The notes below the pieces were generated by a model. The model saw only the letters and a list, made by a program, of their open reading frames with translations. It searched no databases and was not told the DNA's origin. 64,000 nt of DNA from a virus (taxonomy: Duplodnaviria > Heunggongvirae > Uroviricota > Caudoviricetes): the IMG/VR virus record IMGVR_UViG_3300029705_000018, one strand, 5' to 3'. The position numbers and the translations under genes are program-made. Shown piece by piece: positions 33,342 through 46,832 of this stretch (position 1 is the stretch's first letter; the number at the start of each line of letters is the position of its first letter).

Positions 33342-33347
33342 ACCTCC

Positions 33348-33536: not shown

Positions 33537-33574
33537 TTTGTTTTCCTCCTTGTTTGATTTTCTTTATTATACCA

Positions 33575-33612
33575 TGTCGGGGGGCATTTGTCAAGCCCCC
33601 CGACAACTTTTT
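33575..33612 (-). promoter_or_regulatory. terminator hairpin with the next gene's -35 box in its loop (class-2 promoter, one of about 20)
   Basis: On the minus strand reads GTCGGGGGGC-TTGACAAAT-GCCCCCCGAC then ATGGTATAAT, i.e. TTGACA-N17-TATAAT with the -35 in the loop of the upstream gene's terminator. Confidence 0.55.
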
Positions 33613-33613
33613 T

Positions 33614-34228
33614 TTAGAAAGGCAGTTCGTCTGCCAGTCCGGCAACCTCATTCCATTCCTCGACAATCGCAGGAATATCGATGAAAGGACGGCTTGCCAT
33701 GTAGTCCGCCATGTGGACACATCTGTCCACATTGGTAAAGGGTCTGTCCTCTTTCTCGGTAGACCACTGACCCATGTGAGCGCAGACAGCGTTCAGAAGC
33801 AGAAAATGGGGTTCGCCGTAACCAGTGACCAGACAGTAATCACGGAAAGCAGTCGCCGCATTTCTGGCGTGATTCTTGTACTCGGCCTTGTCGAAACCAT
33901 CCAGACCATACTTGACAGTATCGTGAATGATACAGGCGACAATGACGAAATCCTTGTATTCTTCCTTCATGTATGCGTAAGAACTCATGCGGAGCAGTTC
34001 TTCGGCGAACATGACAACCGCCTTGGTGTGGCGAACCAGACCGCCAACGCCCTGGGACATCTTGGGGTGATACTTGCCAGAACTGGAAGCACCGTCTGTC
34101 CAGAAGTAGTCGGGAACTCGGTCGATCAGGTATCCCTTGACCGCCATGCGGAGATCCTCGTCCAGGATGAGGGACAGTTCCCTCTCAAAAAGCTTGATGT
34201 TCTTCATGGGTATCAATTCCTCTCTCAT
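33614..34228 (-). CDS. HD-domain phosphohydrolase
   Basis: GKYHP...VRHTKAVV...IVACIIHDTVKYG...D: the H...HD...D metal-binding signature. Confidence 0.6.
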   Translation of the reverse strand: MREELIPMKNIKLFERELSLILDEDLRMAVKGYLIDRVPDYFWTDGASSSGKYHPKMSQGVGGLVRHTKAVVMFAEELLRMSSYAYMKEEYKDFVIVACIIHDTVKYGLDGFDKAEYKNHARNAATAFRDYCLVTGYGEPHFLLLNAVCAHMGQWSTEKEDRPFTNVDRCVHMADYMASRPFIDIPAIVEEWNEVAGLADELPF

Positions 34229-34254
34229 TTGATGTACTCATTATAGCATAGGAT

Positions 34255-34446
34255 TTAGAGTTTGTCAAGTACTTTTTTAGAAAATTCTGTGTATTCAATA
34301 CACATTTTCAAAGTATCTTTTTCAACTGTCACACGCACAGAACTAACAAGGGGATTTTGTATCATCAGTTCGCCGGCCATTTTCTTGACCTCTGAATAGG
34401 GGATACCCTTACCAATTTCAATTCTAGCCATTGTTTTTCCCTCCAT
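34255..34446 (-). CDS. hypothetical protein
   Basis: 63 aa. Confidence 0.35.
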   Translation of the reverse strand: MEGKTMARIEIGKGIPYSEVKKMAGELMIQNPLVSSVRVTVEKDTLKMCIEYTEFSKKVLDKL

Positions 34447-34832
34447 GGTTCTGGGTTACCCCAGAACCACAAAATTTTTGCCGTAGTGGTCGTGAACGCC
34501 TTCTTCTACATTGTAGGTGATGGACAGTTCATCCATGTAAATGACCTTGGAATCACCAAAACCGAGTTCTTCCATGGTCTGAAGCTGGCGGAGCAGTTCA
34601 CTAACAGTAATGCACTTTTTATTCATGGGGGTTACCTCCTCTTGATTTATAATACAATTATACCACCGATTCCGGGAAAATCAAGTTGGAGTATTGCACA
34701 AAAAATGCGCCCCAAAAATTGTTGGAGTTGGTTATTTTGCCGAAAAACCGGCCCGCGCGCACGTAAAGGGCCGGCCGAAATTTGTGCAAATTGCACAAAA
34801 ACGAAGAAAAACCGGGATTTTTCCCGGTTTTT

Positions 34833-35201
34833 CTAACTTTTTGCCTTTCTTTTTGCGATTAAAGTCAATTCGTAGGCATTTTCACCAATTTTGAAGCTAA
34901 TTTGACGAGTTTTGTTGGTGATTTCCACTGAAACGTAGCCTTTTTCCGCTAAAAAGTGGGCGATTTCCGCAATTACAGCCTCTTTTTCCGGATTTTCGGT
35001 GGGTTTTCGTGCGGATTTGGTGGTTTTTGGCGATTTTGTGTCCGCATTAGCGTTTTTCATAGCCAGTTTGTGTGCTTCTGGACTCAAATCAAAGTCCATT
35101 TGCTCTCCCCTGTCGATGCATTTATCATCGGCAAGAATGGCTTCGGCTTCGCTTCTGGAACACTTGAGAGAACGCATGATGCGTTCGATTTGGCTATCCA
35201 T
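34833..35201 (-). CDS. hypothetical protein (cassette copy 1, gene a; paralog of 37891..38247)
   Basis: 122 aa. Shares the N-terminal I-K/R-L-M-K/R-S-L...S-R-E/S-E-A...D-E/D-D-K-R/C-I-D-R-G-E with its paralog. Confidence 0.5.
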   Translation of the reverse strand: MDSQIERIMRSLKCSRSEAEAILADDKCIDRGEQMDFDLSPEAHKLAMKNANADTKSPKTTKSARKPTENPEKEAVIAEIAHFLAEKGYVSVEITNKTRQISFKIGENAYELTLIAKRKAKS

Positions 35202-35300
35202 GGTGGTTGCCCCCTTTCCTTACTTAGTATAGCACATTTGGGGGGATTTGTCAAGAGGAAAGTTTGGGGGAGAATTTCTCCCCCTCTCCCCTCTCTCTGG

Positions 35301-35693
35301 TTAGACCAGAGAGAAGAAAGCCTTTCTCTTGTCCTCGGTTCTCTTGACCTGGCCTGCATCAACCATCTGGCGAACCAGAGCGGACATTCTCTGGTTGGTC
35401 ATGGTGTCAGGCAGGTTGGGAACCTTTTTCAGCAGTTCGGACACGGTGAACAGCTGATTGGGATTGGCTTCCATCACAGCCAGAACACCGGCCTTGATGG
35501 TTGCGTTGGCTTCCTGCTGAGCGGTGGGCTTCTTCTCAGCGGAGTTCTTCTTGGCCAGCAGTTCCTGCTCGTGGGCGATGAACTCAGCCAGCATGGGGTT
35601 GTTGGCGACTTCGGGGATGTTCGCAATCATAGCGAACTTCTGAGCCTTGGTCAGCTTGGTGGATGCGGAAGCGGAAGAAGTAGTGTTAGCCAT
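35301..35693 (-). CDS. hypothetical protein (cassette copy 1, gene b; paralog of 38327..38704)
   Basis: 130 aa. The MANTTSS...LTKAQKFA...DTMTNQRMSALVRQMVDAGQV block is near-identical in the paralog. Confidence 0.5.
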   Translation of the reverse strand: MANTTSSASASTKLTKAQKFAMIANIPEVANNPMLAEFIAHEQELLAKKNSAEKKPTAQQEANATIKAGVLAVMEANPNQLFTVSELLKKVPNLPDTMTNQRMSALVRQMVDAGQVKRTEDKRKAFFSLV

Positions 35694-36051
35694 AGTATCA
35701 ATTCCTTTCGGTTTTAGCGACTTGAACCTGTCGATGATTTATTCTGTAAGAGGTGTTCCTCTTTACATTCTTATTATAGCACATTCGGCTCGGTTTGTCA
35801 AGAACTTTTTTTCTTTTTTTTTCTTGACCTTGGAGGGTTGCCCCTCTCTTTTTGTACCCTCATTGTATCACATCTTGGGCGGTTTGTCAAGAGGTTTTTT
35901 CAACTTTTTTTTTCGCTCGGCTCGCTCTGTCCTGCGTTGTTGCCTGTCCCTCACTGACAAGGGTATTATACCATAGCCAGAAGCGGATTGCAATAGGCAA
36001 AGTATACAAAATCGGGAGAAATAATTTGTGCATTTTTTTCGCATTTTCCTC

Positions 36052-36175
36052 TTGACAAATTGCTGGGGGTATGGTATAATGGAAATTCTGCCCGGGCACA
36101 CTCGCGCCCGGGCCGCCGAAATGTCAATTGGTAATTTTGCACAAAAAAGTGAGGGTTGCCCCTCACTCATTTTTG
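36052..36175 (+). ncRNA. small-RNA-like mini transcription unit (consensus promoter, GC hairpin, terminator)
   Basis: TTGACA at 36052-36057, 17-nt spacer, TATAAT at 36075-36080. Then GCCCGGGCACACTCGCGCCCGGGC hairpin, CCGCCGAAATGTCAATTGGTAATTTTGCACAAAAAAG, and an AGTGAGGGTTGCCCCTCACT-CATTTTTG terminator. No ORF. Confidence 0.45.
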
Positions 36176-36604
36176 AATGACCGTTTCCAGATTGATTCCG
36201 GCGCTGACTTCTTCCCAGTTCTCCACATTGTCAACATGGACAACCTTGTGACAGCCATTGACCATCATCAGAGAATAGGTTGCGTTCTCATAACCGCACA
36301 GAACCTGGACAACCTCTTTGCCGATTGCCATGCCGAAGCCGGCTTCCCATGCCGTACCAGAGTCGGAATACATACCGAAGTTGAGAACCATGACCACATC
36401 ACAGTCATGGATGGCTTCAATGTCCATTTCAAAGACACGCTTTGCCCAGTCAGAGTTCGGCAAGTCCCATGCGTTGGGAACTTCATGCTCCTGGGGTACA
36501 TGAACCGGATAACCTGCGGAGCGCAGACGAGAGATGGTTTCCTTGTAGACTACCAATTCAGTAGCATTGAAGAACGGCGAAGCCAGATAGATTTTCTTTT
36601 TCAT
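36167..36604 (-). CDS. nucleoside 2-deoxyribosyltransferase-like protein (NDT/Rcl family)
   Basis: MKKKIYLASPFF...DSGTAWEAGFGMAIGKEVV matches the YLAGPFF and SGTAFEIG signature motifs. Start taken at the ATG with a GGAAAGGAAC ribosome-binding site (the six-frame track begins further upstream). Confidence 0.6.
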   Translation of the reverse strand: MKKKIYLASPFFNATELVVYKETISRLRSAGYPVHVPQEHEVPNAWDLPNSDWAKRVFEMDIEAIHDCDVVMVLNFGMYSDSGTAWEAGFGMAIGKEVVQVLCGYENATYSLMMVNGCHKVVHVDNVENWEEVSAGINLETVIQK

Positions 36605-36660
36605 AGTGTTCAGTTCCTTTCCTTTTTGTATTCTCATTATACCATGAGAAAAGGCTTTTG

Positions 36661-37005
36661 TCAAGCCTTTTCTACTCGGTAGAAGAAAAATTTATTGACA
36701 ATTCTTTTTGCCTTTTTGTCGTGGCAAAAATAAATACTTCCGAACAGATGTGTGGAATCGTCCATCAATTTGAGATTTTGAATTGCTTCCAATTTCACAG
36801 GCTTGCTTACATTGCGGAAGAGTTTCCAGAAGAAAACGAATGGGAAAAGCAGGATTTCCAGAATAATTTCCAGAATACCAGTGATGAGCAGATAGGGAAG
36901 CTGGATGAAGTTCATCCATCTCTGGCCCCACAGTTCTTCGTGAATGAAAGACAGGATAATGTATCCGGCAAGAATACCTAATAAGAAATTCAACATTTTA
37001 CACAC
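36661..37005 (-). CDS. membrane protein
   Basis: 114 aa, several hydrophobic helices. Confidence 0.4.
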   Translation of the reverse strand: MCKMLNFLLGILAGYIILSFIHEELWGQRWMNFIQLPYLLITGILEIILEILLFPFVFFWKLFRNVSKPVKLEAIQNLKLMDDSTHLFGSIYFCHDKKAKRIVNKFFFYRVEKA

Positions 37006-37060
37006 CTCATTTGTTTTTCTTTATTATAGCATGAATTGGGGGTTTTGTCAACCCCCAATT

Positions 37061-37387
37061 TTACGGAAGTTCATCGGGATAGCAGAAGCATTCCCATGCG
37101 ATACTCTCCCAAGTTTCCATACACTTGGAAGTGTTGCACAGCCAGATCGTGACAAAGAAAGTATTGACAACAGGCAGACCAATCATCAAAGCGCACTGGA
37201 TGAGACTGATGAAAGTCTTTGCCCAGTTCGTAGGCTGTTTGACCCTGACCATGCCCTTGGCCTTGCACTCCTTAAAAGTGGGAATCATAGCCAGACTGGC
37301 GAACACGAACAGATACAGGAAAGCCAGAATTGCGCTTGCGACATAGACCCAGAAGAAAATTTCTAACATAACATTTACCTCACTCAT
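37061..37387 (-). CDS. membrane protein
   Basis: 108 aa. Confidence 0.4.
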   Translation of the reverse strand: MSEVNVMLEIFFWVYVASAILAFLYLFVFASLAMIPTFKECKAKGMVRVKQPTNWAKTFISLIQCALMIGLPVVNTFFVTIWLCNTSKCMETWESIAWECFCYPDELP

Positions 37388-37441
37388 TTAATTTTCTTTA
37401 TTATAACATAGGTTTGCGAATTTGTCAAGAGTTATTTTGTA

Positions 37442-37654
37442 TCAAAGGGACATTTTCTGTCCCCAGATACAACGCTCAAAGGCAGGCTTGTAGACATTGT
37501 TCCAAATGAACTCCATCTCGTTGTAAGCTTCTCTGTCCTCCACAATCATTGCGTAGAACTGAACTGCTCCGAACGCCTGATGAATCCACAGTTCTTTGCC
37601 GTCCTTCTGGCACTGAGCCAAAAGCCAATCGATGTGCTGTTTCAGTTTATCCAT
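37442..37654 (-). CDS. hypothetical protein
   Basis: Start taken at MDKLKQ with a CAAGGAGGTAATC ribosome-binding site. Its own TTGACA-N17-TATAAT promoter is at ~37690-37725. A GC-hairpin module with a further upstream promoter lies at 37745-37830. Confidence 0.45.
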   Translation of the reverse strand: MDKLKQHIDWLLAQCQKDGKELWIHQAFGAVQFYAMIVEDREAYNEMEFIWNNVYKPAFERCIWGQKMSL

Positions 37655-37890
37655 GGTGATTACCTCCTTGATTTGTACCCTAATTATAGCATAGGTTTCG
37701 GGATTTGTCAAGGGGTTTTGCAAAAATAATTTTTGCAAGAAAAATTGCTGAAATAGGGGGTTAGTAGCGAAATGCCGGGCGCCACACTCGTCAGCGCCCG
37801 GCCATTATACCACATTCTTTTGAAAATGTCAAGCATTATTTTTTCGTCAAAATGCACAAAAAATCTGTCCGCGCTGGGCGGACAGATTTC

Positions 37891-38247
37891 TCAGGAGCGG
37901 GGACACGCAAGGGTGACTTTGTACTTCGTGCCGTTGTGGGTGAACAGGAACTCACGCTCGGCATTGGTGACATTGAACTCGGTGATTCCCAGTCCATTCA
38001 GACCTTCCATCATTGCGGAACACAGCTCTGCCTTTTCCGGCTTGGCTTTCTTCTCTCTTTTGGTGGTGGTCTGCTTGCGGTCTGCCTGTCGTGCTTTCTT
38101 TGCGCCCGCTTCCAGTTCGGGGTCAAGCTCAAACAACTTTTCGCCCCTGTCGATTCGCTTGTCTTCGTCCATCAGTTCGATGGCTTCCTCACGGCTGATG
38201 TTCAGCGACTTCATCAGCTTCTGGATTTTCTCTTCCATCGGGGTCAT
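37891..38247 (-). CDS. hypothetical protein (cassette copy 2, gene a)
   Basis: 118 aa paralog of 34833..35201. Confidence 0.5.
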   Translation of the reverse strand: MTPMEEKIQKLMKSLNISREEAIELMDEDKRIDRGEKLFELDPELEAGAKKARQADRKQTTTKREKKAKPEKAELCSAMMEGLNGLGITEFNVTNAEREFLFTHNGTKYKVTLACPRS

Positions 38248-38326
38248 CTCCTTTCTGTACTAAGTATAGCACAGATTGCTGGATTTGTCAAGGGGAAATT
38301 TTGGGGGAGTTTCCTCCCCCATCGGG

Positions 38327-38704
38327 TTACGCAATGGCGAAGAACGCCTTGCGCTTGTCCTCGGAGCGGACAACCTGACCCGCATCGACCATCTGACGGA
38401 CGAGTGCGCTCATGCGCTGATTGGTCATGGTGTCGGGCAGACCGGGCACTTCCTTGAGCAGTTCGGACACGGTGCGCTTCTTGCCGTCAGCCAGAACCTC
38501 CAGAACGGCGGTCTTGATTACGGCATTTGCCTCCTGCTGGGCAGTGGGCTTCTTGTCGGCGGAGTTCTTCTTTGCCAGAAGCTCAACTTCGTGGGCGATG
38601 AACTCGGACAGCATGGGGTCAGCCTTGACGGCGGGCAGTTCAGCCAGAATGGCGAACTTCTGAGCCTTGGTCAGACGAGCGGAAGAAGAAGTAGTGTTAG
38701 CCAT
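38327..38704 (-). CDS. hypothetical protein (cassette copy 2, gene b)
   Basis: Paralog of 35301..35693. Start taken at MANTTSS (ATG 38702-38704) with a GGAGA ribosome-binding site. Confidence 0.5.
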   Translation of the reverse strand: MANTTSSSARLTKAQKFAILAELPAVKADPMLSEFIAHEVELLAKKNSADKKPTAQQEANAVIKTAVLEVLADGKKRTVSELLKEVPGLPDTMTNQRMSALVRQMVDAGQVVRSEDKRKAFFAIA

Positions 38705-39374
38705 AGTATCGATCTCCAATCTTGCGGTAGGTCGCAACCCAAATTTGATTTATCTGTAAGAGGTGTTCCTCTTTACATTCTTATTGTATCACATCTTGAG
38801 CCAGTTGTCAAGAGGTTTTTTGAATTTTTTTTTGGCTTTCACTCCACCTAGTCCCTAATACAGCCTCGGGATTGGTTCACATTTATATTCCGCACAACGG
38901 AGCGACCGTGCGGTCGAGGACTTTGTCGTCATGGTCTGACACGACTCTCGTGGGTCTTGTCTCAACGACTTCTGCCATGCTTCCCTCTTTTGTACCCTTA
39001 TTATAACACATCTTGGGGAGTTTGTCAAGAGGTTTTTTTTCAGATTTCCTTCTGTTCGGTCATCTTGTGGTCACTTGCTCCGCAAGCCCTACCGCCTCCG
39101 ACCACGGCTAACCTCTTGACTTCTCTTACATTGTATCACAACTTGGGGGATTTGTCAAGGGGTTTCTTGAAGTTTCTTCAAGAAAGTTGCGTGCCGGAAG
39201 GTTGGGTCGTACACAGCCTCTGCCAACAGTTCGACGCCTAGCGTGGGTTTCCCAACTCCCGAGGCGTTCCCTCCCCTTGACACCAATACTATACCACATC
39301 TGCCCCCAGATTGCAATTGGCAAAATACACAAAATCGGGAAAAATAATTATTTATTATTTGTGCAATTTTCCTC

Positions 39375-39470
39375 TTGACAAATTGGCTGGCGGTGTGGTA
39401 TAATAAAATTTCGGCGCCCATCAACCGTGGGCGCCGCGCCGAAAAAGCCACCCCAAAAATGGGGTGGCTT
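39375..39470 (+). ncRNA. small-RNA-like mini transcription unit
   Basis: TTGACA at 39375-39380 and TATAAT at 39399-39404. Then TTTCGGCGCCCATCAACCGTGGGCGCCGCGCCGAAA hairpin with a 3-nt bulge, then AAAAAGCCACCCCAAAAATGGGGTGGCTTT. The same hairpin is the terminator of the minus gene 39476..39904. Confidence 0.4.
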
Positions 39471-39475
39471 TCGTA

Positions 39476-39904
39476 TCAGCTGGGCAGACCTCCGCCCATA
39501 ACCTGAATCACCTTCAAAACCATGTCCTCGGCTGACATACACTCTTCGGGTTCCTCGGGGGGCAGGAGTTCGGCTTTCTGCTGTTCGGCCAGGGCGGACA
39601 TGACCTCGAAAATGTTGGGGATGATTTCTCGCTCGACCTCGAGTTCGGGTTCGGGGATGGGTTCCTCGTCCTGTTCCCAGAGGTGCTTCATCAGCACCCC
39701 CAGAATCATCAGAGAGAACTCGTCCGTGGCGAACTGGTCGGGGTGGTTCACCAGAGCCAGAACCTCGCCGGTGTAGCCGTCGCACACATGGGCATGATTG
39801 CCGTTCGTGTCAGCTCTCAGCAGTTCCAGGATTGCGATTTCGGGGTCGTCAGTCTTGACAGTGACCTCAGCGTCGGAGTAAAAAACAGAGATTACATACT
39901 TCAT
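39476..39904 (-). CDS. hypothetical acidic protein
   Basis: 142 aa. Confidence 0.45.
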   Translation of the reverse strand: MKYVISVFYSDAEVTVKTDDPEIAILELLRADTNGNHAHVCDGYTGEVLALVNHPDQFATDEFSLMILGVLMKHLWEQDEEPIPEPELEVEREIIPNIFEVMSALAEQQKAELLPPEEPEECMSAEDMVLKVIQVMGGGLPS

Positions 39905-40003
39905 AGGTATCAGTTCCTTTCCTTTGTTGTACCAACATTATAACATGGATTAGTTGGTTTGTCAAGAGGTTTTTGAAAAATTTTTTTTAGGGGATGGGGC
40001 GGA

Positions 40004-40684
40004 TTACTCCGCCCACTTGGGGAAACACTTGTTGTATTCCTTGCCCTTGGCATCCCAGCAATGCACATTCTTGGTGAACTTCTTGTGTGTCCGCAGACAG
40101 CGGACAAAAATCTGCATTTCAATCATGGCATCAGCCAGAGCCGTGTGTTCCTCGATGAAGTCGGGGTCGTTAGTGATGAACGCATACACGGCTTCCGCAG
40201 TGGTCGCACAAGTGTTCTTGCTTCTGGACTGGAAGCCATTTGCACGGCAAAACTTGGCATAGCCTTTCTGGTGGCAGATGGTCTGGGTTGCCATCAACCA
40301 AAGGTCGATGAACTCGAACTCCTCAGCCAACGCACGGCAGGCAGTTTTGGTAAGGTCGAAAGCGGAATTGTAAGCACAGATGTACTTGACGCCGTAGAAG
40401 TGGCACAGATTGGAAACAATGCTGACTGCCTCGGCTTCGGTAGTCACCGCAGACATTTCACCGCTTGCCAGTCTCTTGGCATAGATGGGGAAGTTCTTCT
40501 TGGCATAGTCATCGTTGCGGATTTCCTCATAGTGTTCCATCACCAGAAGATTGGTGGTTGCGAAGATGTTACCCTCTCTGTCATGGATGGTACAGCCGAC
40601 ATTGTACATTCCGGAGGGAGTGGAAGCACCGCCTACAGTCTCGGTGTCCAGAGTACAGAAAATTGTCTTATTCATTGGTATCAA
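40004..40684 (-). CDS. DEDDh-type 3'-5' exonuclease (DnaQ/RNase T superfamily)
   Basis: Exo I FCTLDTETVG, Exo II YNSAFD, Exo III HTALADA. Confidence 0.65.
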   Translation of the reverse strand: MIPMNKTIFCTLDTETVGGASTPSGMYNVGCTIHDREGNIFATTNLLVMEHYEEIRNDDYAKKNFPIYAKRLASGEMSAVTTEAEAVSIVSNLCHFYGVKYICAYNSAFDLTKTACRALAEEFEFIDLWLMATQTICHQKGYAKFCRANGFQSRSKNTCATTAEAVYAFITNDPDFIEEHTALADAMIEMQIFVRCLRTHKKFTKNVHCWDAKGKEYNKCFPKWAE

Positions 40685-40743
40685 TTCCTTTCCTTTGATG
40701 AACTTATTGTATCACAAAATAGCCGGTTTGTCAAGGGATTTTT

Positions 40744-41193
40744 TTAGAATCCCTGACACATTTTTTCCAGCTTCGCCCAGTTGACGGAGAAGACATTGCG
40801 GAAACCCTCAAACTCCATCTCGGCGTAGTCCATGAAGTTCCGCAGTTCAGAGTAGCAGGGCAGATGGCCATCGAACCGCAGACCGAACTCACGAGCCAGC
40901 TTCTTGCACCACAGTTCATCCAACTGGTCTTCGGTGAACTTCTCGTGGGTCTTGGGGTTGATAACCACACGGACTTCCTTGTGGTAGGTAGTCTTCTCAG
41001 TGCGGACGACCTGCACCAGACCATACTCCCGGGCAGTTTCCAGACAGACGGAAGCGGAATAGGGATAGCGACCATCGGAGAAGCGGTCACGAACCTCATT
41101 GAACTGCTTCTTGGTGAACTCAACAGGCAGAGCCTTGAAGGTTTCACGAGTCTTGGGAGCCAGTGCCATCATAGAAGAGAAATTGTGTGCCAT
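40744..41193 (-). CDS. hypothetical protein
   Basis: 149 aa. Confidence 0.45.
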   Translation of the reverse strand: MAHNFSSMMALAPKTRETFKALPVEFTKKQFNEVRDRFSDGRYPYSASVCLETAREYGLVQVVRTEKTTYHKEVRVVINPKTHEKFTEDQLDELWCKKLAREFGLRFDGHLPCYSELRNFMDYAEMEFEGFRNVFSVNWAKLEKMCQGF

Positions 41194-41654
41194 AATATTT
41201 TACCTCATTTCATTTATTTGGTGGGGCTTACCATCGTTTCCCTCACCTTGTATTTGTATTATAGCATAGATTGTTTGGTTTGTCAAGAGGTTTTCTCAAA
41301 AAATTCCGGACTTTTTTGATTATCTCCGATACTTCTTGCCTCAAAAGACCTGTTTTAGATTGTTGCCCCAGCTCATTCCTTGTACCCTCGGGCAAGGACT
41401 ATGTCAGTCCGCAACTTCTCTCTTTCCGCTTTCTCTTGGCGATTTTCTCCGTCGAGGTTCCCCTCTTGACACAGTCATTGTACCACAGATTTTGGGATTT
41501 GTCAACTCGTTAAAATACACAAATAATCGCCGAAAATAAATGCCTAGGTTGGTTATTGTGCCAAATTCGGCGCGCCTGGACCGTGGGCGCGCCGCCGAAC
41601 TTTTGTGCAAAATGACGAAAAATCCCTTTCCATTTCTGGAAAGGGATTCCAAAA

Positions 41655-42026
41655 TCAAATCACATTGAAAAGGACAATCTTTTCGGGAATGTCCTTCCAC
41701 TCGTTCCGACCGACCTGGATGCGGAGGGTGCGTCCGGTGATGAACTCAGTGCGCTGGACTGCGCCGACCTTGACCAGCTTCCGCACATTCTGAGAAATCA
41801 GCTGAACAGTGGGAGCATGATACTCGGGGTTGTACTTCTCCATCGGGTAGCCGTAAGACTCCCATCTCTTTCTGCCGACTACCTCGGCAATCTGTGTGGC
41901 AGTAGCACCGCACTCGCCGAAACCAGATAAGGCGCTCAGAATGTCGGACAGGTACTTGTATCTTTTTCGGTTCTCACGGGTAGAACACTCAGCGACAGCA
42001 ACATGGGCAAGATTAGGATTATTCAT
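41655..42026 (-). CDS. hypothetical protein
   Basis: 123 aa. Terminator GGAATCCCTTTCCAGAAATGGAAAGGGATTTTT lies directly downstream. Confidence 0.45.
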   Translation of the reverse strand: MNNPNLAHVAVAECSTRENRKRYKYLSDILSALSGFGECGATATQIAEVVGRKRWESYGYPMEKYNPEYHAPTVQLISQNVRKLVKVGAVQRTEFITGRTLRIQVGRNEWKDIPEKIVLFNVI

Positions 42027-42101
42027 AGTATCAATTCCTTTCAGTTCTCTTTTGTTGTAATTATTGTATCATAGGTTTTCGGATTTGTCAAGAGGAAATT
42101 C

Positions 42102-42542
42102 TCAGATTTCTCTGAGAATTTCCATGATGTTCTGTACATCGTGGGGGATGCCAGTCCATCCAGTTCTGTTCCGTTCCTCATCATCGAACAGAATGTCGAG
42201 AGGGGTTCGGCAGAACATTTCCTTAGGAGTGCCATAGGGAACGATGTTGATTTCATCCCAATGGACGGAGGGCAGATGTTCCGCAAGCCAGACCTTTTTG
42301 ACTTCGGTAACTCTTGCGTTGTACTCTTTGCTTCCGCTCTTGGAAGTCCAGGAGATAACGGAGAGCCGATAGCCTTGCTTCTGGAGTGCGTTCAGCTTGC
42401 GAGCCAGAGCGGAGAGGTTCAGCAGAGGTTTTGCGATTGCGTAGGGAGTGGTATCTTCAGCTTCCAGATAGGGGAGCCAGTTCTTGACACCGTAGAGGTC
42501 AGCGATTGTGCCGTCCATGTCGAAGTTAATTGTAACAGTCAT
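42102..42542 (-). CDS. HAD-superfamily 5'(3')-deoxyribonucleotidase-like protein
   Basis: N-terminal INFDMDGTIADL (HAD motif I, DxDGT). Size ~150 aa is typical of phage/NT5C-type nucleotidases. Confidence 0.55.
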   Translation of the reverse strand: MTVTINFDMDGTIADLYGVKNWLPYLEAEDTTPYAIAKPLLNLSALARKLNALQKQGYRLSVISWTSKSGSKEYNARVTEVKKVWLAEHLPSVHWDEINIVPYGTPKEMFCRTPLDILFDDEERNRTGWTGIPHDVQNIMEILREI

Positions 42543-42592
42543 TTGATTCAGTTCCTTTCCTTTTTTGTACCTTAATTATAACACGGAATACC

Positions 42593-42793
42593 TCATTTGT
42601 CAAGAGGTATTCCAACAATTTTTCTGATTTCTTCATCTTTTTTGTAGTGTGTGAAAGACTTGTCAAAGCAACATTCCACGATCCACAAATCATCTCCGGT
42701 GGAGTAGTTCACGACTTTCCACATTGTACCATGTTCGGGGAACACCAGACCGCACCGCACATGAGTCAGGGATCTACATTTAATTTTATCCAT
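42593..42793 (-). CDS. hypothetical protein
   Basis: 66 aa. Confidence 0.35.
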   Translation of the reverse strand: MDKIKCRSLTHVRCGLVFPEHGTMWKVVNYSTGDDLWIVECCFDKSFTHYKKDEEIRKIVGIPLDK

Positions 42794-42848
42794 TTATCTC
42801 ACCTCTTGATTATTGTATCATAGTTTGGAGATTTTGTCAAGCCCTTTT

Positions 42849-43410
42849 TTAGTAGGGCTTGGCAACTCTCTTTGCTTCCTTGGGGTCAATCAGAACACCA
42901 ACAAAGCGGTCATTCAGCTGATAGGCTTCTTCATACTTGCCGATGAAATAAGCACGCATCCGACTTTCACAGGCGATTGTGGCGGAGAGGTTGTGGCAGG
43001 GTTCGCACATTACAACTTCAAGCCGAACTTTTGCACCTGCCAACTTTTCATACTCGGCGACTTCCTGCTGAAATCTTTCCTGCGGTTGTTCGCTTGTACC
43101 AATCTTGCTTGCGTACAGCAGACCAGATTCCACAAAGTACACATGGAGCAGATAGCAAGCAGAGCCGAACACTTCCCGCACCTTCCAATCAATGTAATGC
43201 TTGGTGTGGTTGGTTCTACCTCTTCCGCACTTAAAAGCGACCTTGTCTTTTTCCTTGACGGTGAACCGCTTCATCCATGCTTCATACTGATTTGCCTTGT
43301 AAGCGGTCAGAACTGCTTTCCATGCCTTCTGGATGTGTCCTGCGGACAAGCCTGCGTTCTTACGGCGATTGTATTCTTTTACCAGACCCTCAAAAATAAC
43401 CTCATTCATT
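42849..43410 (-). CDS. hypothetical protein
   Basis: Start taken at MNEVIFEGL with a GGAAAGAGGAAC ribosome-binding site. Confidence 0.4.
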
Positions 43411-43528
43411 TTGTGTTCCTCTTTCCGGGTTGCCCCTTGATTTATAAGCCTAGTATACACTATAAATCACGATTTGTCAAGCATTATTTTGGGATTTTTC
43501 AAAAAAAGTTTTTTGTGCAAATTGCCTA

Positions 43529-43625
43529 TTGACAAATTGGCTGGGCTGTGGTATAATGGAAATAACGCGCCGGCTGGGTCGTGGGCGGCGCGCCGAAAAA
43601 TAAAGTGAGAATTTCTTCTCACTTT
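43529..43625 (+). ncRNA. small-RNA-like mini transcription unit
   Basis: TTTTGTGCAAATTGCC, then TTGACA at 43529-43534, 17-nt spacer, TATAAT at 43552-43557. Then AACGCGCCGGCTGGGTCGTGGGCGGCGCGCC hairpin, GAAAAATAA, and AAGTGAGAATTTCTTCTCACTTT terminator. Confidence 0.45.
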
Positions 43626-43857
43626 ACAGCTTGGTTCCAGAAGGTGACCGGAAAATCATTTCAGTTTTCTTGTATGTGATTTCTGCGGTGGCTCCGCAAC
43701 CACATTTGAATTTGCGATACAGCTGATGGGAAGTTTCTCCCTCGTAAACTACCTTGAACTGTGCGGTGCTTCCGCAATTAGGACATCTCTCAACCATTAT
43801 TATCATTTCCTTTCCTTTTGTTGTACTTATTATACCATGTAATTGGGGATTTGTCAA
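43624..43857 (-). CDS. small zinc-ribbon protein
   Basis: 77 aa with CPNCGS...CGCG. Confidence 0.4.
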   Translation of the reverse strand: MTNPQLHGIISTTKGKEMIIMVERCPNCGSTAQFKVVYEGETSHQLYRKFKCGCGATAEITYKKTEMIFRSPSGTKL

Positions 43858-44180
43858 TCCCCAATTTCACAACATTCGTAAGTATTTTGCGGGATGATGC
43901 AGTCCATCACATCAAACTTCTGTGCGTTGCCATGAATGAGATAGACATGAGCATTGGGAAACTCCCTCTGAATGTCTTCCAGATAATTGTAGAAGCCATT
44001 ACACAGTTGTTCAAACCGTTCCTGTCTTTCGTCAATGCGTTCCTCGCACATCTGAGCGAGTGCCCGCAACTGTTCTTTGTTCATGTTTTTGACATTGTCG
44101 CAGAGGTCTGCGAATCTAACTGGATTCAACATGGTATCATTCTCCTTTCTTGAACTTCTGGCGATTGTATCGCTTGCCAC
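43854..44180 (-). CDS. hypothetical protein
   Basis: 108 aa. Confidence 0.4.
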   Translation of the reverse strand: MASDTIARSSRKENDTMLNPVRFADLCDNVKNMNKEQLRALAQMCEERIDERQERFEQLCNGFYNYLEDIQREFPNAHVYLIHGNAQKFDVMDCIIPQNTYECCEIGD

Positions 44181-44361
44181 TTTCTACCTTGCTTCCTCTC
44201 TTGCGGAAGTTCAGCCACTGCTGAAGTTCTTCGCCCTCTTTCTTGAATACTCGGCGATCCAGTTCCTTTTTCTTCTTTGCCATTGTTGTCAACTCCTTTG
44301 TTTTTCTATAAATATTATAACATACTTTTTATTTATTGTCAAGGGGAATTTTTCATTCCCC

Positions 44362-44676
44362 TTACATTCTCAGCAGAAACGCATACTTTTCATTGTTCTT
44401 GCGGACTCTGTTCTTCAATGCCACAGGCATCTTTTCATTGTAGTAGAAGGAAGAAACCTGAGCCATCGTTCCCATGTATCCGGTGATGAGGGTATCATCC
44501 TTGACTACCAAAATGATTCCGGTATCAGTCAGCTTTCTGGTTGCGTATTCGCCATGCCGGTAGCTTGTCTGTTCTCTGATGATTTCATTGAATCCCAGAT
44601 GTTGGATGCAAGCGGTGAGTCTGTCAATCCGTTCTTCCTTAGCGTGGTAGGTCATTTCAAATCTCATAGTAGCCAT
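44362..44676 (-). CDS. hypothetical protein
   Basis: 104 aa. Confidence 0.4.
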   Translation of the reverse strand: MATMRFEMTYHAKEERIDRLTACIQHLGFNEIIREQTSYRHGEYATRKLTDTGIILVVKDDTLITGYMGTMAQVSSFYYNEKMPVALKNRVRKNNEKYAFLLRM

Positions 44677-45009
44677 TGTTTTTATCTCCTTTTGTTTTCC
44701 TTTTTTGTACCTTTATTATAACATGAGTTTCGGGATTTGTCAAGGGGTTTTTTATTTATTTTTCAAAACCCCATCAGACAGAACAGAATCATAACAACCA
44801 GACCTGTGAGGGTCAGACCCAAGGCCGCAAGGAAGTTTTCAAACATTTGCTTGTAATTCTTGCGATTGTCCACAGGACACCAGTCTGCGTAATAGATGTT
44901 CCGGCAGATGCGGAAGCGGATGTATTTGAACAGTTTCTTCATGGCTCTTGGCTCCTCTCTTTTGTTGTCTTCATTATAACACAAAAGAGGCTTGTTGTCA
45001 AGCCCCTTT

Positions 45010-45345
45010 TTAGAAAATTCTAATAATTTCATCGTCGTAAATGTCATTTGTACCCATGTCATCAAACTCAATCCAGACCTGCTGCCCCAGTTCGAAGGAT
45101 TCTCCCTCTTCCAGTTCCCAGACCCAGACCTCGCCAGAAGCATCCTCAAAAGCAACAGCCTCTGCATTGACTTCGCACACAGTAGCACTTACTTCATTAG
45201 CATCACTGTAGAGACAGTCTACGAGCATCCATCCGCACACCATAGCCAGAGCCAGCATTCCTACGCACAGTACTTTTCTAATCATTGTCATTATCTCCTT
45301 CGTTGTTTGTACCTGTATTGTATCATGAATTATGGGATTTGTCAA
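45010..45345 (-). CDS. putative secreted protein or lipoprotein (signal-peptide-like N-terminus; true start probably the internal MTMIRK)
   Basis: The hydrophobic stretch VLCVGMLALAMVCGW comes after an internal Met. A TTGACA-N17-TACAAT promoter lies upstream on the minus strand. Confidence 0.4.
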   Translation of the reverse strand: MTNPIIHDTIQVQTTKEIMTMIRKVLCVGMLALAMVCGWMLVDCLYSDANEVSATVCEVNAEAVAFEDASGEVWVWELEEGESFELGQQVWIEFDDMGTNDIYDDEIIRIF

Positions 45346-45449
45346 TCGTCAAAATACACAAAAGAATTGCGTTTTTTATTTGCTGAGTTGTGCATTTCGC
45401 CGAAGTCTAGGCAGGTGGCGGTCGTGTGCGGAGACAAGTAAAGGTCTGC

Positions 45450-45668
45450 TTATTTGCAGACCTTCATGATTAGTCTCTCATAGCTTAGTCCTGCCACAGC
45501 ACACAGAGACCGCAGGTTCTCTTTGACGTACAGCTTCTCTGCATAGGCAAGTGTGCCCTTCGGCTTGTCCATCATGCGCATGATGTAGTTGTACTGATAG
45601 GTCTCGCGCAGGCTAGGCTTGCGCTCTGTGATGATGTCGAGCATCTTGTTGATGGCTGTCTTGTTCAT
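45450..45668 (-). CDS. hypothetical protein
   Basis: 72 aa. Terminator AAAGGTCTGCTTATTTGCAGACCTT lies downstream. Confidence 0.4.
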   Translation of the reverse strand: MNKTAINKMLDIITERKPSLRETYQYNYIMRMMDKPKGTLAYAEKLYVKENLRSLCAVAGLSYERLIMKVCK

Positions 45669-46022
45669 TGTGTGTGCCTCCTTTACTTGATGGTGATGGT
45701 GGTGTGCTTGGTGTACTTGCTAGTCTTTACATCTACGATGGTATCCTGGTAGGCTCTGTTGCTGATGCTGTGGAACTCTACGGTGGTGTTCTTGTCTTCT
45801 ACCTTGTTCAGCAGAGCGATCAGTTCAGCGACGGTCATGGTGTTCTTCATAGTGTGTATCTCCTTTACTCTTGGGTTGTGTCCCTCTCTCTTTGTGTCTT
45901 TATTATAACATTACAGGAGTTATTTGTCAAGCTTTTTTTTATTATTTTACACACTTTTTTTTCTACAGCCTAGCCCTACGGGCCAGTTAGGGAGCCTGTG
46001 GGTCGTGGTCGGTGGCTACTCC

Positions 46023-46394
46023 TTACAGAGTAGCCATTACCTTAGCAAGCTCTTCAGTACTCATGCTCTTGTAGTGTTCCATGATAGCCTTGAGCATCTT
46101 GTTGCGCTTAGTCTCTTCTTCTCTCTCTGTGTTGCGCTGTGCTCTGTACTCGTCACGCTCAGCCTCTGTGTCGAACCACGTGTACTGTCCGTAGAGGTAG
46201 CCAACCTTCTTGCCCTGTGCGGTGTAGATGTTGATGATGCCTTTGTTGTTGTTGATGTACATGACCTCGGACCAACCACCTTCGTTGTGGATGTCATAGA
46301 TGTTACGCTTGGGGATGTTGTGGGCTTCGATGTAGTCCTTGGTGTAGAGCTTCTGTCCGTTGATGTGGTACAGTTCGTTTACGTTGTGCATCAT
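46023..46394 (-). CDS. hypothetical protein
   Basis: 123 aa. Confidence 0.45.
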   Translation of the reverse strand: MMHNVNELYHINGQKLYTKDYIEAHNIPKRNIYDIHNEGGWSEVMYINNNKGIINIYTAQGKKVGYLYGQYTWFDTEAERDEYRAQRNTEREEETKRNKMLKAIMEHYKSMSTEELAKVMATL

Positions 46395-46832
46395 AGTGAT
46401 TATCTCCTTTACTTTGTGAGGTGTGTTCCTCTGTTTTTTGTAGCTTTATTATAACACACGGGTGAGAGTTTGTCAAGGGGTTTTAGGAAATTTTTTTATT
46501 ATTTTTTTTCTTTGGAATGTGGCAAAATTTTCTCGAACCTCTCAAGATAACGCAAAATCGGCTCTGCGCGCACGTCGCCGAGCCGAGCAATTAGGGGGTG
46601 CTTTGTAGGGGGTGGGTATCTGTCATGTGTCAGAGAGTTTAGAGACATGGACAATAGACTCTGTATTTTCTGCCGGATGAAAAACCGGGGGTGTATTTCG
46701 GGAAAAACTTTTTTTTCGATAGGCCAAAACTTTTGCGCTGGGCAATACAATCTTGAAATCAATTTTCAATTTCGGAATACGATTCTGGGATAAAAAAAAG
46801 GAGAACGGTATTTTACCATTCTCCTCAAATTT

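What the first reader, a model, noticed from the sequence alone, without database searches (positions are those of the whole stretch)
34690..45450. Dispersed family of about 7 mini transcription units: promoter, GC-clamp hairpin, CCGAAAnTTTTGTGCAAAAT, terminator
Copies lie at ~34700, 36000, 37745 (inverted), 39320, 41500, 43495 and 45340. Each has:
- a GC-rich bulged hairpin, either GCCCGGGC-ACACTCG-CGCCCGGGC or CGGCGCGCC-TGGACCGTGG-GCGCGCCG;
- the motif GCCGAA(A)(T/C)TTTTGTGCAAAAT;
- a strong stem-loop terminator;
- upstream, a conserved CAAAATACACAAAAtcggGaAAAATAA box and often TTTGTGCA(A/T)TT.
Three copies (36052, 39375, 43529) are preceded on the plus strand by textbook TTGACA-N17/18-TATAAT promoters that would give 70-90-nt non-coding RNAs convergent with the minus-strand genes. 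One copy (37745-37830) is in the opposite orientation with its own promoter. 34786-34804 is the perfect palindrome TTTGTGCAAATTGCACAAA. These look like a family of phage small-RNA genes and/or operator-bearing regulatory modules.
Basis: seen in the sequence. Interest (0 to 1): 0.75.

Follow-up and report, generated by a model that had tools for sequence, protein, structure and literature searches.

The report
Antisense-promoter hairpin cassettes between phage early operons
The repeats are real: they are conserved boundary cassettes between early operons of a large gut Clostridia phage, each built on a GC-rich hairpin with a perfect promoter aimed backwards into it, a layout shared by a whole group of related phages and not described before.

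Summary
A covariance model trained only on related phages finds six solid copies in the window, all on the + strand: 34715-34778, 36047-36119, 37740-37805, 39370-39442, 41522-41598 and 43524-43596. The copy at 45340 and an extra one at 46547-46589 are degenerate.

Related 90-200 kb human-gut phage contigs, phAss-1 and Clostridia MAG contigs carry the same cassette 4-7 times per early region. The full form reads: upstream operon terminator, T-rich upstream box, sense promoter P1, 24-29-nt GC hairpin, antisense promoter Panti. P1 and Panti face each other, with 37 bp between their -10 hexamers. A downstream promoter P2 follows.

Hairpin stems covary strongly: 95% of cells are paired and 8 of 8 pairs show changes on both sides. 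The "inverted" copy is not inverted; it keeps P1 and has lost Panti.

Three window copies keep only Panti. They should give 62-90-nt two-hairpin antisense RNAs that end at the upstream gene's terminator.

The most likely role is cis-acting antisense transcription at operon boundaries (insulation or interference, as at B. subtilis helD), and the cassettes also act as recombination joints like T4 PeSLs. A trans-acting sRNA is not excluded. No transcript data exist.

The parts
34715..34780 (+). C1: cassette with a decayed antisense promoter arm (AAAATTGTTG at 34715-34724), hairpin 34748-34774 (CCGGCCC/GGGCCGG) and flanking GCCGAAA on both sides. It has no working promoter on either side.
   Evidence: Model R1 scores it 20.7 bits on the + strand. 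It is a paralogue of C3 (34624-34776 matches 37652-37803).
34781..34834 (.). Palindrome TTTGTGCAAATTGCACAAA (34781-34799), made of two opposed upstream boxes, followed by the bidirectional terminator of gene 34833-35201 (34805-34834).
35965..35993 (-). P2-type sense promoter (TTGCAA-17-TATAAT). It lies back to back with Panti of C2.
   Evidence: read from the sequence; homologous boxes in relatives.
36025..36080 (+). C2 upstream box TTTGTGCA (36025-36032) and antisense promoter Panti (TTGACA 36052-36057, TGGTATAAT ending at 36080).
   Evidence: model R1 scores 57.7 bits.
36087..36176 (+). Predicted C2 antisense RNA of about 90 nt. It has a 5' hairpin at 36090-36113 and GCCGAAA at 36115-36121 (the P1 discriminator relic). 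TGTCAA at 36122-36127 is the relic -35 of P1, and its upstream box lies at 36131-36145. The terminator hairpin at 36148-36167 overlaps the stop codon of gene 36167-36604.
   Evidence: Fold of -39 kcal/mol, z -4.43.
37740..37802 (+). C3: decayed Panti arm (AAAAATTGCTG at 37740-37750) and hairpin 37774-37802 with loop ACACTCG. Both lie in the same orientation as in C2.
   Evidence: Model R1 scores 28.2 bits on the + strand.
37804..37893 (-). C3 sense promoter P1 (TTGACA 37832-37827, TATAAT 37809-37804), only 1 nt from the hairpin. Its upstream box lies at 37846-37864, next to the terminator of gene 37891-38247 (37857-37893).
   Evidence: model R1 scores 26.6 bits on the - strand.
39288..39316 (-). 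P2-type sense promoter (TTGCAA-17-TATAGT) with upstream box CAAAATACACAAAATCGGGAAAAATAA at 39321-39347.
   Evidence: paralogous to 35947-36121.
39358..39404 (+). C4 upstream box TTTGTGCA (39358-39365) and Panti (39375-39404, 18-nt spacer).
   Evidence: model R1 scores 49.5 bits.
39411..39476 (+). Predicted C4 antisense RNA of about 62-66 nt: hairpin 39412-39436, linker CGCCGAAAAA, and terminator hairpin 39447-39468 that abuts the stop of gene 39476-39904.
   Evidence: Fold of -42.6 kcal/mol, z -7.09.
41522..41650 (+). C5: decayed Panti arm, hairpin 41568-41594 (CGGCGCGCC/GGCGCGCCG), GCCGAAC, an upstream box in + orientation at 41601-41613, and the terminator of gene 41655-42026 (41619-41650). 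It has no working promoter.
   Evidence: Model R1 scores 34.7 bits; (I12).
41477..41505 (-). P2 sense promoter downstream of C5, with upstream box AAAATACACAAATAATCGCCGAAAATAAA.
43512..43557 (+). C6 upstream box (43512-43519) and Panti (43529-43557).
   Evidence: model R1 scores 77 bits.
43564..43630 (+). Predicted C6 antisense RNA of about 62-67 nt: hairpin 43566-43592, linker CCGAAAAAT, and terminator hairpin of about 43601-43625 that overlaps the stop of gene 43624-43857.
   Evidence: Fold of -30 kcal/mol, z -4.12.
45317..45452 (.). C7: degenerate boundary. It holds a P2 promoter (45345-45317, - strand) with upstream box CAAAATACACAAAAG, GCCGAAG, a decayed hairpin region with the GGTCGTG loop motif, and the terminator of gene 45450-45668.
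   Evidence: Sequence; model R1 does not find it.
46547..46589 (+). C8: degenerate extra copy. Hairpin CGGCTC-TGCGCGCACGTCGCC-GAGCCG (46559-46585), with a loop like that of C1.
   Evidence: Model R1 scores 9.3 bits, E 1.2; sequence.

Best explanation
Shown:
- The repeats are operon-boundary regulatory cassettes of the phage's early (host RNA polymerase, sigma-A type) region.
- Their core is a 24-29-nt GC-rich hairpin placed just after the terminator of one early operon and before the promoter (P2) of the next.
- In the full form seen in relatives, two perfect consensus promoters are butted against the hairpin and face each other.
  - Panti is the antisense promoter. Its spacer is conserved. 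Its -10 lies 7-8 nt from the stem, so its RNA would begin at the foot of the hairpin.
  - P1 is the sense promoter. Its -10 lies 2-6 nt from the stem, so its start would lie inside the stem.
- In this window the cassettes are half-forms. C2, C4 and C6 keep Panti only, C3 keeps P1 only, and C1 and C5 keep the hairpin only.

Inferred:
- Panti fires strongly early in infection. It makes short antisense RNAs of 62-90 nt here, capped by a stable 5' hairpin, that run back into the upstream gene's bidirectional terminator.
- The act of antisense transcription and the polymerase parked on Panti matter more than the RNA sequence. They oppose read-through from the upstream operon. Where P1 is present they compete with it: the two starts are only about 25 bp apart, so occupancy is mutually exclusive.
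- This would make each boundary an insulator or switch, in the manner of the convergent-promoter control of B. subtilis helD.
- The 5' hairpin would protect the RNA ends from 5' exonuclease.

Shown by comparison: because the cassettes are repeated, they also serve as joints for recombination, duplication and swapping of early operons, like PeSLs of T4-type phages.
For: Family and conservation:
- Homologous cassettes occur in 9 or more IMG/VR gut contigs, in phAss-1 and in Clostridia/Lachnospiraceae MAG contigs.
- I collected 53 unique cassettes: 30 with both promoters, 9 with Panti only and 14 with P1 only.
- There are 104 model hits in 310 kb of related loci.

Hairpin under selection:
- 95.8% and 95.0% of cells are paired.
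- 7 of 8 and 8 of 8 pairs show changes on both sides.
- Slid controls pair at no more than 46%.

Geometry:
- The distance from the Panti -10 to the stem is 7-8 nt in 30 of 38 cassettes.
- The distance from the P1 -10 to the stem is 2-6 nt.
- The gap between the two -10 hexamers is 37 bp in 19 of 29 cassettes.

Panti is independent of P1: the window keeps three 12/12 Panti copies although P1 is gone.

The RNA body is not conserved: between hairpin and terminator lies either the P1 promoter in antisense or a short A-rich linker.

Position: every copy lies between a terminator and the next sense promoter. In L035-L037 the hairpin directly follows the upstream stop codon.

Mechanistic precedent: at helD a strong antisense promoter gives an antisense RNA of about 90 nt that ends at terminators, the distal one belonging to the upstream gene. 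It represses a slow-escaping sense promoter (PMC12802891).

Recombination joints:
- Collinearity of L009 and L008 ends at the hairpin.
- The same Panti arm is joined to different hairpins and P1 arms, and the reverse also occurs.
- Panti is present or absent between phages that are 97% identical.
- In the window, the operon bounded by C1 and C2 is duplicated as the one bounded by C3 and C4.
Against: - There are no transcript data of any kind. Promoter activity, start sites and termination are all predicted.
- Insulating co-directional early operons that each carry their own promoter has no obvious benefit.
- P1 reads through Panti and P2, which fits an insulator poorly.
- The hairpin stays perfect where neither promoter survives (C1, C5) and folds equally well on both strands. 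It therefore has some role that this model does not need.
- The hairpin loop keeps an orientation-specific CG(T) at a fixed place. This hints at sequence-specific recognition by something unidentified.
- The spacing between starts is about 25 bp, against 39 bp at helD. A deletion to about 22 bp abolished that regulation.
- Only about 60% of Panti copies are followed by a U-rich terminator within 200 nt.
Confidence: 0.45

Rival explanations
1. Multi-copy trans-acting small RNA or decoy. The product that matters is the abundant 5'-triphosphate GC hairpin RNA with its conserved loop. It would bind or titrate a host or phage protein, for example a nuclease or a defence or CRISPR-type hairpin-binding protein. 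Alternatively it would pair by loop-loop kissing with the complementary 5' hairpin of P1 transcripts, as IS10 RNA-OUT pairs with RNA-IN or plasmid copy-control RNAs pair with their targets.
For: - The promoters are perfect and the RNAs have a compact two-hairpin shape.
- The Panti-only form with its own terminator recurs in three unrelated contigs: the window, L018 (5 copies) and L024.
- The hairpin length is held at about 27 nt, and an invariant CG(T) lies at loop positions 15-17 while the stems change.
- The C2 RNA loop ACACUCG is complementary to the loop of the C3 P1 leader.
Against: - There is no conserved single-stranded seed.
- The stems differ between copies of one genome, and the loops fall into several types.
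- The hairpin is kept where no promoter reads it.
- There is no strand bias in folding energy or in G-U pairs.
- Nothing matches in Rfam.
- The 3' flank, which a CRISPR-repeat mimic would need conserved, varies.
- The P1 leader overlap does not cover a ribosome-binding site.
Confidence: 0.2
2. Antitermination leader, like a nut or put site. The hairpin at the 5' end of Panti (or P1) transcripts would load a phage factor onto RNA polymerase. Later in infection these transcripts would then ignore the terminators. The + strand transcripts would run antisense through the early genes, shutting them off, and on towards the + strand late genes at 49 kb.
For: - The hairpin lies at a fixed distance from the start site.
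- The Panti spacer and the AAAATTGCTG motif are conserved even where the -35 is lost, which suggests a bound factor.
- Many antisense-direction terminators are weak.
- Panti points towards the late gene block.
Against: - The hairpin sequences differ among copies, unlike boxB.
- No candidate factor was found: Pfam and PHROG searches of the early proteins gave nothing.
- The late block has its own consensus promoter at 49107.
- The AAAATTGCTG motif is absent from the late region.
Confidence: 0.1
3. The cassettes are mainly an evolutionary device or by-product. They would be repeated promoter-terminator joints that persist because they mediate recombination and operon shuffling. The antisense promoter would have no regulatory role of its own.
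For: - Recombination breakpoints and mosaic arms meet at the hairpin.
- Panti is present in some close relatives and absent in others.
- An operon bounded by cassettes is duplicated in the window.
- PeSLs provide the precedent (PMC2839356, PMC4122927).
Against: - A non-functional antisense promoter would not stay at 12/12 consensus with a conserved spacer, an upstream box and an exact distance to the hairpin across diverged phages.
- Compensatory changes show selection on pairing, which recombination alone does not require.
Confidence: 0.12
4. DNA-level element. The hairpin or palindrome would be a cruciform or protein-binding site, for example a replication origin, a nuclease or recombinase target, or a polymerase trap. 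The flanking promoters would serve to open the DNA.
For: - Both strands fold equally well.
- The hairpin is kept without promoters (C1, C5).
- The cassette orientation relative to the genome is fixed.
Against: - Stems of 7-9 bp with 8-13-nt loops extrude poorly from duplex DNA.
- The stem sequences covary freely, so there is no fixed protein site.
- Four to eight copies per early region is many for an origin.
- Convergent transcription would overwind the site rather than open it.
Confidence: 0.06

Closest known systems
[quoted passage not shown]
   Same: - It works in a Firmicute with sigma-A promoters that face each other in an intergenic region.
- The antisense promoter is the stronger one. 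It makes an antisense RNA of about 90 nt that stops at terminators, the distal one being the upstream gene's terminator read backwards.
- The effect is transcriptional interference in cis, not RNA pairing.
   Different: - The predicted starts here are about 25 bp apart against 39 bp, so the two polymerases should exclude each other.
- A covarying GC hairpin fills the gap between the promoters.
- The cassette is repeated 4-8 times in a phage early region.
- A third promoter (P2) follows.
- In this window the two promoters no longer occur at the same copy.
- There is no sequence homology, and the inducing signal is unknown.
PeSLs, promoter-early stem-loop cassettes of T4-type phages (Arbiol 2010, PMC2839356; Comeau 2014, PMC4122927)
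   Same: - They are repeated composite stem-loop plus early host-type promoter motifs between small early genes.
- They act as points of recombination, indels and module swapping between related phages.
   Different: - The phage lineage and host differ (a large Clostridia phage related to phAss-1).
- The stem-loop here is a second hairpin beyond the canonical terminator.
- The cassette carries an antisense promoter and often a face-to-face pair, which PeSLs do not.
IS10 pIN/pOUT (RNA-IN/RNA-OUT) and coliphage 186 pR/pL face-to-face promoters (from my own knowledge, not checked here)
   Same: The promoters face each other at close range and their transcripts overlap at the 5' ends. In IS10 the antisense partner is a stable hairpin RNA.
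   Different: - In IS10 the overlap covers the ribosome-binding site; here it covers only the hairpin, about 170 nt upstream of the gene.
- Those are single-copy switches, not dispersed families.
Lambda OOP RNA (from my own knowledge, not checked here)
   Same: It is a short constitutive antisense RNA that runs into the 3' end of an upstream, convergently read early gene and ends at a terminator.
   Different: - OOP overlaps coding sequence and acts through RNase III.
- It is single copy and has no 5' GC hairpin or partner promoter.

Membership tests
Any Rfam family | A match to a curated covariance model at its gathering score | tested here: not met
   There is no hit in 34-46 kb at the gathering score. 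With relaxed thresholds only sub-threshold chance-level hits appear: PyrG leader 37 bits against a cut-off of 65, BSnc120 29 against 114.
PeSL-type composite promoter/stem-loop cassette | A repeated intergenic motif that joins a stem-loop to an early host-type promoter, lying among small early genes | tested here: met
   There are six or more copies between small minus-strand genes, each next to consensus promoters.
PeSL-type composite promoter/stem-loop cassette | Breakpoints of indels and gene swaps between related phages fall at the motif | tested here: met
   - Collinearity of L009 and L008 ends at the hairpin.
- Cassette arms are mosaic.
- Panti shows an indel between close relatives.
- The window holds a duplication bounded by cassettes.
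- Not every breakpoint lies at a cassette.
PeSL-type composite promoter/stem-loop cassette | Homology to the T4-type PeSL sequences, or residence in a T4-like genome | not tested
   The sequences were not compared. The phage is related to phAss-1 and to large Bacillus siphoviruses, not to T4. Any likeness is therefore one of kind, not of descent.
helD-type dual convergent promoter switch | A sense and an antisense sigma-A promoter face each other upstream of a gene | tested here: inconclusive
   This is met in 30 unique cassettes of relatives. It is not met at any single copy in the window: C2, C4 and C6 have the antisense promoter only, and C3 the sense promoter only.
helD-type dual convergent promoter switch | Spacing of about 39 bp between starts, so that both polymerases can bind. 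Shortening by 17 bp abolishes control. | tested here: not met
   The two -10 hexamers are 37 bp apart, which puts the predicted starts about 25 bp apart. Compare.
helD-type dual convergent promoter switch | The antisense promoter is stronger or escapes faster. Mutating it de-represses the sense promoter. | not testable with these tools
   There is only sequence-level support. Panti has an A/T-rich start region (GGAAATTT), while P1 has a G/C-rich discriminator and start region.
Base-pairing trans sRNA | A conserved single-stranded seed region and a defined terminator | tested here: not met
   The segment between hairpin and terminator is either the antisense of P1 or a variable A-rich linker. 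A terminator-like end is present in only 22 of 37 copies.
CRISPR-repeat mimic (solitary repeat unit / anti-CRISPR RNA; from my own knowledge) | Promoter plus a hairpin and flank that match the repeat of a host CRISPR array, including the conserved 3' handle | not tested
   The host and its arrays are unknown. The stems and 3' flanks vary among copies, which argues against a single repeat being mimicked.

The most novel reading that the evidence does not exclude
The cassettes are a phage-borne family of face-to-face dual-promoter switches that read the state of the host RNA polymerase pool. Panti is fast and A/T-starting. P1 is slow and G/C-starting. The two compete for one site. As polymerase is inhibited, modified or depleted during takeover, or as GTP falls, the balance would flip at every operon boundary at once. 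That would time the shut-off or switch of early operons without a dedicated repressor. Alternatively, the hairpin RNAs made from both strands would be a new class of multi-copy decoy.
Probability: 0.2. Interest if true: 0.8.

Novelty: new variant of a known kind. Interest (0 to 1): 0.6.

Why it matters
Large uncultured gut Clostridia phages of the phAss-1 type, which reassign the TAG stop codon in late genes, have no described regulatory logic. This cassette gives a concrete, repeated and conserved control element of their early programme, and it can be searched for with a covariance model.

If the face-to-face promoters act as an interference switch, helD-type convergent-promoter control, shown only this year in B. 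subtilis, would extend to phage development. It would also offer compact parts (insulator, antisense unit, 5' stabiliser hairpin) for engineering in Firmicutes.

The cassettes also mark where early operons are exchanged between phages. That helps to read mosaic phage genomes.

Tried and rejected
- **Rfam.** Scans at gathering and relaxed thresholds found no family for the units.
- **Megablast against 50,697 phage records.** The 12-kb region gave no match. Only a distant search with a consensus cassette found phAss-1.
- **Strand-of-action test.** Folding energies and G-U counts of 36 unique hairpins on both strands show no asymmetry: -17.0 against -17.2 kcal/mol, and 14 against 17 G-U pairs. 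I could not tell an RNA of one strand from the other, or from DNA.
- **Spo0A-box idea for GCCGAAA/TGNCGAA.** The box is not enriched, 43 found against 33 expected. Dropped.
- **AAAATTGCTG as a middle or late promoter element.** It is absent from the late region. Dropped.
- **Is the upstream terminator specially bidirectional where Panti is present?** The A-tract counts do not differ clearly between classes, 2.3-3.3. Inconclusive.
- **Search for a regulator among early proteins.** Pfam, PHROGs and PDB sequence searches gave nothing useful for the winged-helix-like paralogues.
- **The hairpin as a simple intrinsic terminator.** The tail in the sense direction is AAAUUUCC where Panti is present. 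It is a proper U-tract (UUUUCGGC) only where Panti is lost. The tail in the antisense direction is not U-rich. I considered this only a partial explanation.
- **CRISPR-repeat mimic and type III antitoxin mimic.** Both were considered from memory and set aside, because the stems and flanks vary.

Full report
**Setting.** The window comes from a large phage.
- It carries a ROOL RNA, 31 tRNA genes and a DUF3800-XI motif on the minus strand at 1-14 kb.
- Structural and terminase genes lie on the plus strand from 49 kb.
- Between 33 and 46.5 kb lies a run of small minus-strand genes. Nearly every one has its own perfect TTGACA-17-TGnTATAAT promoter. One search counts 32 such promoters on the minus strand. 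One search finds 53 promoter-like sites against 15.5 expected.
- This is an early, host-polymerase-driven region of the kind known from SPO1-like host-takeover modules.
- The nearest annotated relative is phage phAss-1 from human gut, in the 'code 15 clade'. The paper on that phage says nothing about promoters or repeats. MAG contigs with the same cassette are binned as Clostridia or Lachnospiraceae.

- The only perfect plus-strand promoters in the early region are at 36052, 39375 and 43529. They share their spacer, so they are copies of one another.
- Each is followed 8-9 nt later by a hairpin with an all-G/C stem.
- To avoid circularity I built a covariance model from 13 cassettes of other phages only and scanned the window with filters off. 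It finds, all on the plus strand:
  - 43524-43596 (77 bits)
  - 36047-36119 (57.7 bits)
  - 39370-39442 (49.5 bits)
  - 41522-41598 (34.7 bits)
  - 37740-37805 (28.2 bits)
  - 34715-34778 (20.7 bits)
- The copy at 45340 is not found. It keeps only the upstream box and a decayed hairpin.
- There is an extra decayed copy at 46547-46589.

**What relatives show.**
- A scan of viral contigs for the shared promoter spacer and a second scan brought in early regions of 90-200 kb gut phage contigs. A scan of genomes brought in Clostridia MAG contigs.
- All carry the same cassette several times. Locus L008 (14.8 kb), for example, has four hits above 75 bits and three weaker ones.
- The full cassette, read in the direction of the genes, has these parts in order:
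  1. the terminator of the upstream operon;
  2. a T-rich box, TTTTTGTGCATTTTGCCTA;
  3. a consensus sense promoter, P1;
  4. the GC hairpin;
  5. a consensus promoter on the other strand, Panti, pointing back at the hairpin, with its own box;
  6. about 30 nt of spacer;
  7. a longer box, TCCCGAAATTTGTGCA;
  8. the promoter P2 of the next gene.
- P1 and Panti thus face each other, with 37 bp between their -10 hexamers in 19 of 29 cases.
- The Panti -10 lies 7-8 nt from the stem in 30 of 38 cases, behind an A/T-rich GGAAATT(T).
- The P1 -10 lies only 2-6 nt from the stem, behind G/C. The predicted Panti start is therefore at the foot of the hairpin and the P1 start is inside its 5' arm.
- Among 53 unique cassettes, 30 have both promoters, 9 have Panti only and 14 have P1 only.

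- GCCGAAA is the reverse complement of P1's discriminator (TATAAT-TTCGGC-hairpin).
- In C2 it is fused to TGTCAA, the relic -35 of a P1 that has lost its spacer and -10. The TTTTGCACAAAA beyond it is P1's upstream box.
- The CAAAATACACAAAATCGGGAAAAATAA box is the upstream element of the minus-strand P2 promoters at 35993 and 39316.
- The TTTGTG[CT]A box always lies 9 nt upstream of a -35 and follows the promoter's orientation. It behaves as a promoter upstream element. The palindrome in C1 is two such boxes head to head.
- The 'inverted' copy at 37745-37830 is not inverted. Its AAAATTGCTG motif lies 33 nt before the hairpin and its loop ACACTCG is in the same plus orientation as in C2. It simply retains P1 (37832-37804, minus strand) and has a mutated Panti.
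- C1 and C5 retain recognisable but dead Panti arms and no P1.

**The hairpin is under selection for pairing.**
- In 18 hairpins of 27 nt, 95.8% of cells pair and 7 of 8 pairs show changes on both sides.
- In 90 distinct model hits, 95.0% of cells pair and 8 of 8 pairs show changes on both sides. Registers slid by 1-3 columns pair at no more than 43%.
- The first set was chosen for having a stem and the second was aligned to the model, so the paired percentage leans high. The diversity of pair types is not affected by that.
- Independently, all 24 unique Panti promoters found by promoter sequence alone are followed by a hairpin.
- The loop keeps an invariant CG, usually CGT(G), at positions 15-17 on the antisense strand while the stems change.
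- Folding energy and G-U pairs show no preference for either strand.

**What the window copies would make.**
- From the usual start 7 nt after the -10, C2, C4 and C6 would give RNAs of about 90, 62-66 and 62-67 nt.
- Each has the GC hairpin at the very 5' end, a short A-rich linker, and the terminator hairpin of the upstream minus-strand gene read backwards.
- The folds have z-scores of -4.4, -7.1 and -4.1.
- These terminators are first of all the terminators of the minus-strand genes. They abut or overlap the stop codons at 36167, 39476 and 43624. In the antisense direction their U-tracts are moderate.
- Among relatives, only 22 of 37 Panti copies meet a U-rich terminator within 200 nt. In L035-L037 the hairpin follows the upstream stop codon directly, with no other terminator.

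**Evolutionary behaviour.**
- Collinearity between L009 and L008 (97% identical over 8.5 kb) ends exactly at a cassette hairpin.
- The same Panti arm (45 of 45 identical) is joined to different hairpins and unrelated P1 arms, and the reverse also occurs.
- One cassette has a full Panti in L009 but a 30-nt shorter version without a -35 in L008 and L019.
- In the window, the block 34624-36121 (C1 to C2) is paralogous to 37652-39444 (C3 to C4) at 65-73% identity. A whole operon bounded by cassettes was therefore duplicated.
- This is the behaviour described for PeSLs of T4-type phages.

**Mechanism.**
- Shown: the architecture, its conservation, the covariation and the recombination pattern.
- Inferred: activity of the promoters, start sites, termination and any effect.
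- I favour a cis-acting role of antisense transcription for four reasons.
  1. Nothing in the RNA body is conserved.
  2. Panti stays perfect even without P1.
  3. The unit always lies at an operon boundary.
  4. A closely similar arrangement has just been shown to work by transcriptional interference in a Firmicute. At B. subtilis helD a strong antisense promoter makes an antisense RNA of about 90 nt that ends at terminators, the distal one being the upstream gene's terminator. It keeps a slow-escaping sense promoter off.
- The contrast between the A/T-rich start of Panti and the G/C-rich discriminator of P1 would give the two promoters different kinetics, as at helD.
- The differences from helD are real. 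The predicted starts are about 25 bp apart rather than 39, which in helD's case abolished control. There is also a hairpin, and a third promoter follows.
- The 5' hairpin would also make the RNAs resistant to 5' exonuclease, as known for 5' stabilisers in B. subtilis (from my own knowledge).

**What this model leaves unexplained.**
- The hairpin is kept where no promoter reads it.
- The loop motif is conserved.
- The AAAATTGCTG motif is conserved even in dead Panti arms.
- It is unclear why co-directional early operons need insulating.

These gaps keep the rivals alive: a trans-acting hairpin decoy or kissing antisense RNA, a nut-like antitermination leader, a purely recombinational role, and a DNA-level site.

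**Comparison and novelty.**
- No Rfam family matches. The phAss-1 paper does not mention the elements. Full-text searches found nothing equivalent.
- The parts are all of known kinds: consensus promoters, a terminator-like hairpin, an antisense RNA and a recombination cassette. The combination is not described: a covarying hairpin clamped between face-to-face consensus promoters, repeated at every early operon boundary across a group of gut phages.
- I rate it a new variant of a known kind. It is of moderate to good interest, mainly because it is conserved, easy to test and tied to an almost unstudied phage group.

Noticed in passing
window 49076-64000 (+ strand), e.g. 51438-53201: The late genes look TAG-recoded. 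Reading TAG as a sense codon lengthens the terminase large subunit from 338 to 587 aa (in-frame TAGs at 51693, 52710 and 52950). PHROG matches then span the TAGs (phrog_24618 residues 354-579 cover profile positions 2-230 of 230). Several other late ORFs also lengthen (53542-55182, 60275-61324). This fits the kinship with phAss-1 of the 'code 15 clade'. No tRNA with a CUA anticodon is among the 31 tRNAs at 1-14.5 kb.
   Followed up: partly
window 2984-3609 (-), 1033-13605 (-), 10489-10524 (-): There is a ROOL RNA (323 bits), an array of 31 tRNA genes, and a DUF3800-XI RNA motif among the tRNAs.
   Followed up: no
window 33100-46480 (- strand): About 30 perfect or near-perfect TTGACA-17-TGnTATAAT promoters lie here, roughly one per small gene, most followed by the same strong ribosome-binding stretch (AAAGGAAAGGAACTGA...). 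It is an unusually dense array of early promoters.
   Followed up: partly
window 38740-39316 and 35700-35993 (- strand): There are trains of consensus promoters (39316, 39158, 39028 and 38811; 35993, 35890 and 35801). Each is followed by 100-190 nt, some of it G/C-rich, with no convincing ORF before the paralogous genes at 38704 and 35693. A roughly 33-codon ORF after 39000 is the only exception. These stretches may be further non-coding RNAs or stacked leaders.
   Followed up: no
window 34624-36121 and 37652-39444: This is a paralogous duplication of a whole early operon: a 122/118-aa gene, a 130-aa winged-helix-like gene, and the promoter train. It is bounded by cassette hairpins and is 65-73% identical. 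Homologues of the 130-aa protein (C-terminal EDKRKAFF) recur next to cassettes in the relatives.
   Followed up: partly
window 32770-33100: This ORF-less stretch lies downstream of promoter 33132-33104. It holds four CCGATCGG palindromes and a GC hairpin at 33062-33088, which gives a partial hit of the cassette model at 15.8 bits.
   Followed up: no
window 48995-49135: A back-to-back pair of perfect promoters, 49023-48995 (-) and 49107-49135 (+), both with A/T-only spacers, lies at the divide between the leftward genes and the rightward genes (the block that holds terminase and the structural genes).
   Followed up: no
L008:9459-9564, L019:6243-6349, L018:6307 and 8748; window C1, C3, C5: Cassettes with 'dead' Panti arms share the same derived features across different phages. 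The -35 is lost, AAAATTGCTGA is kept, and GGAAATTT is replaced by (T)GCCGAAA(A). This gives a proper U-tract after the hairpin in the sense direction. It looks like a second functional state rather than random decay.
   Followed up: partly
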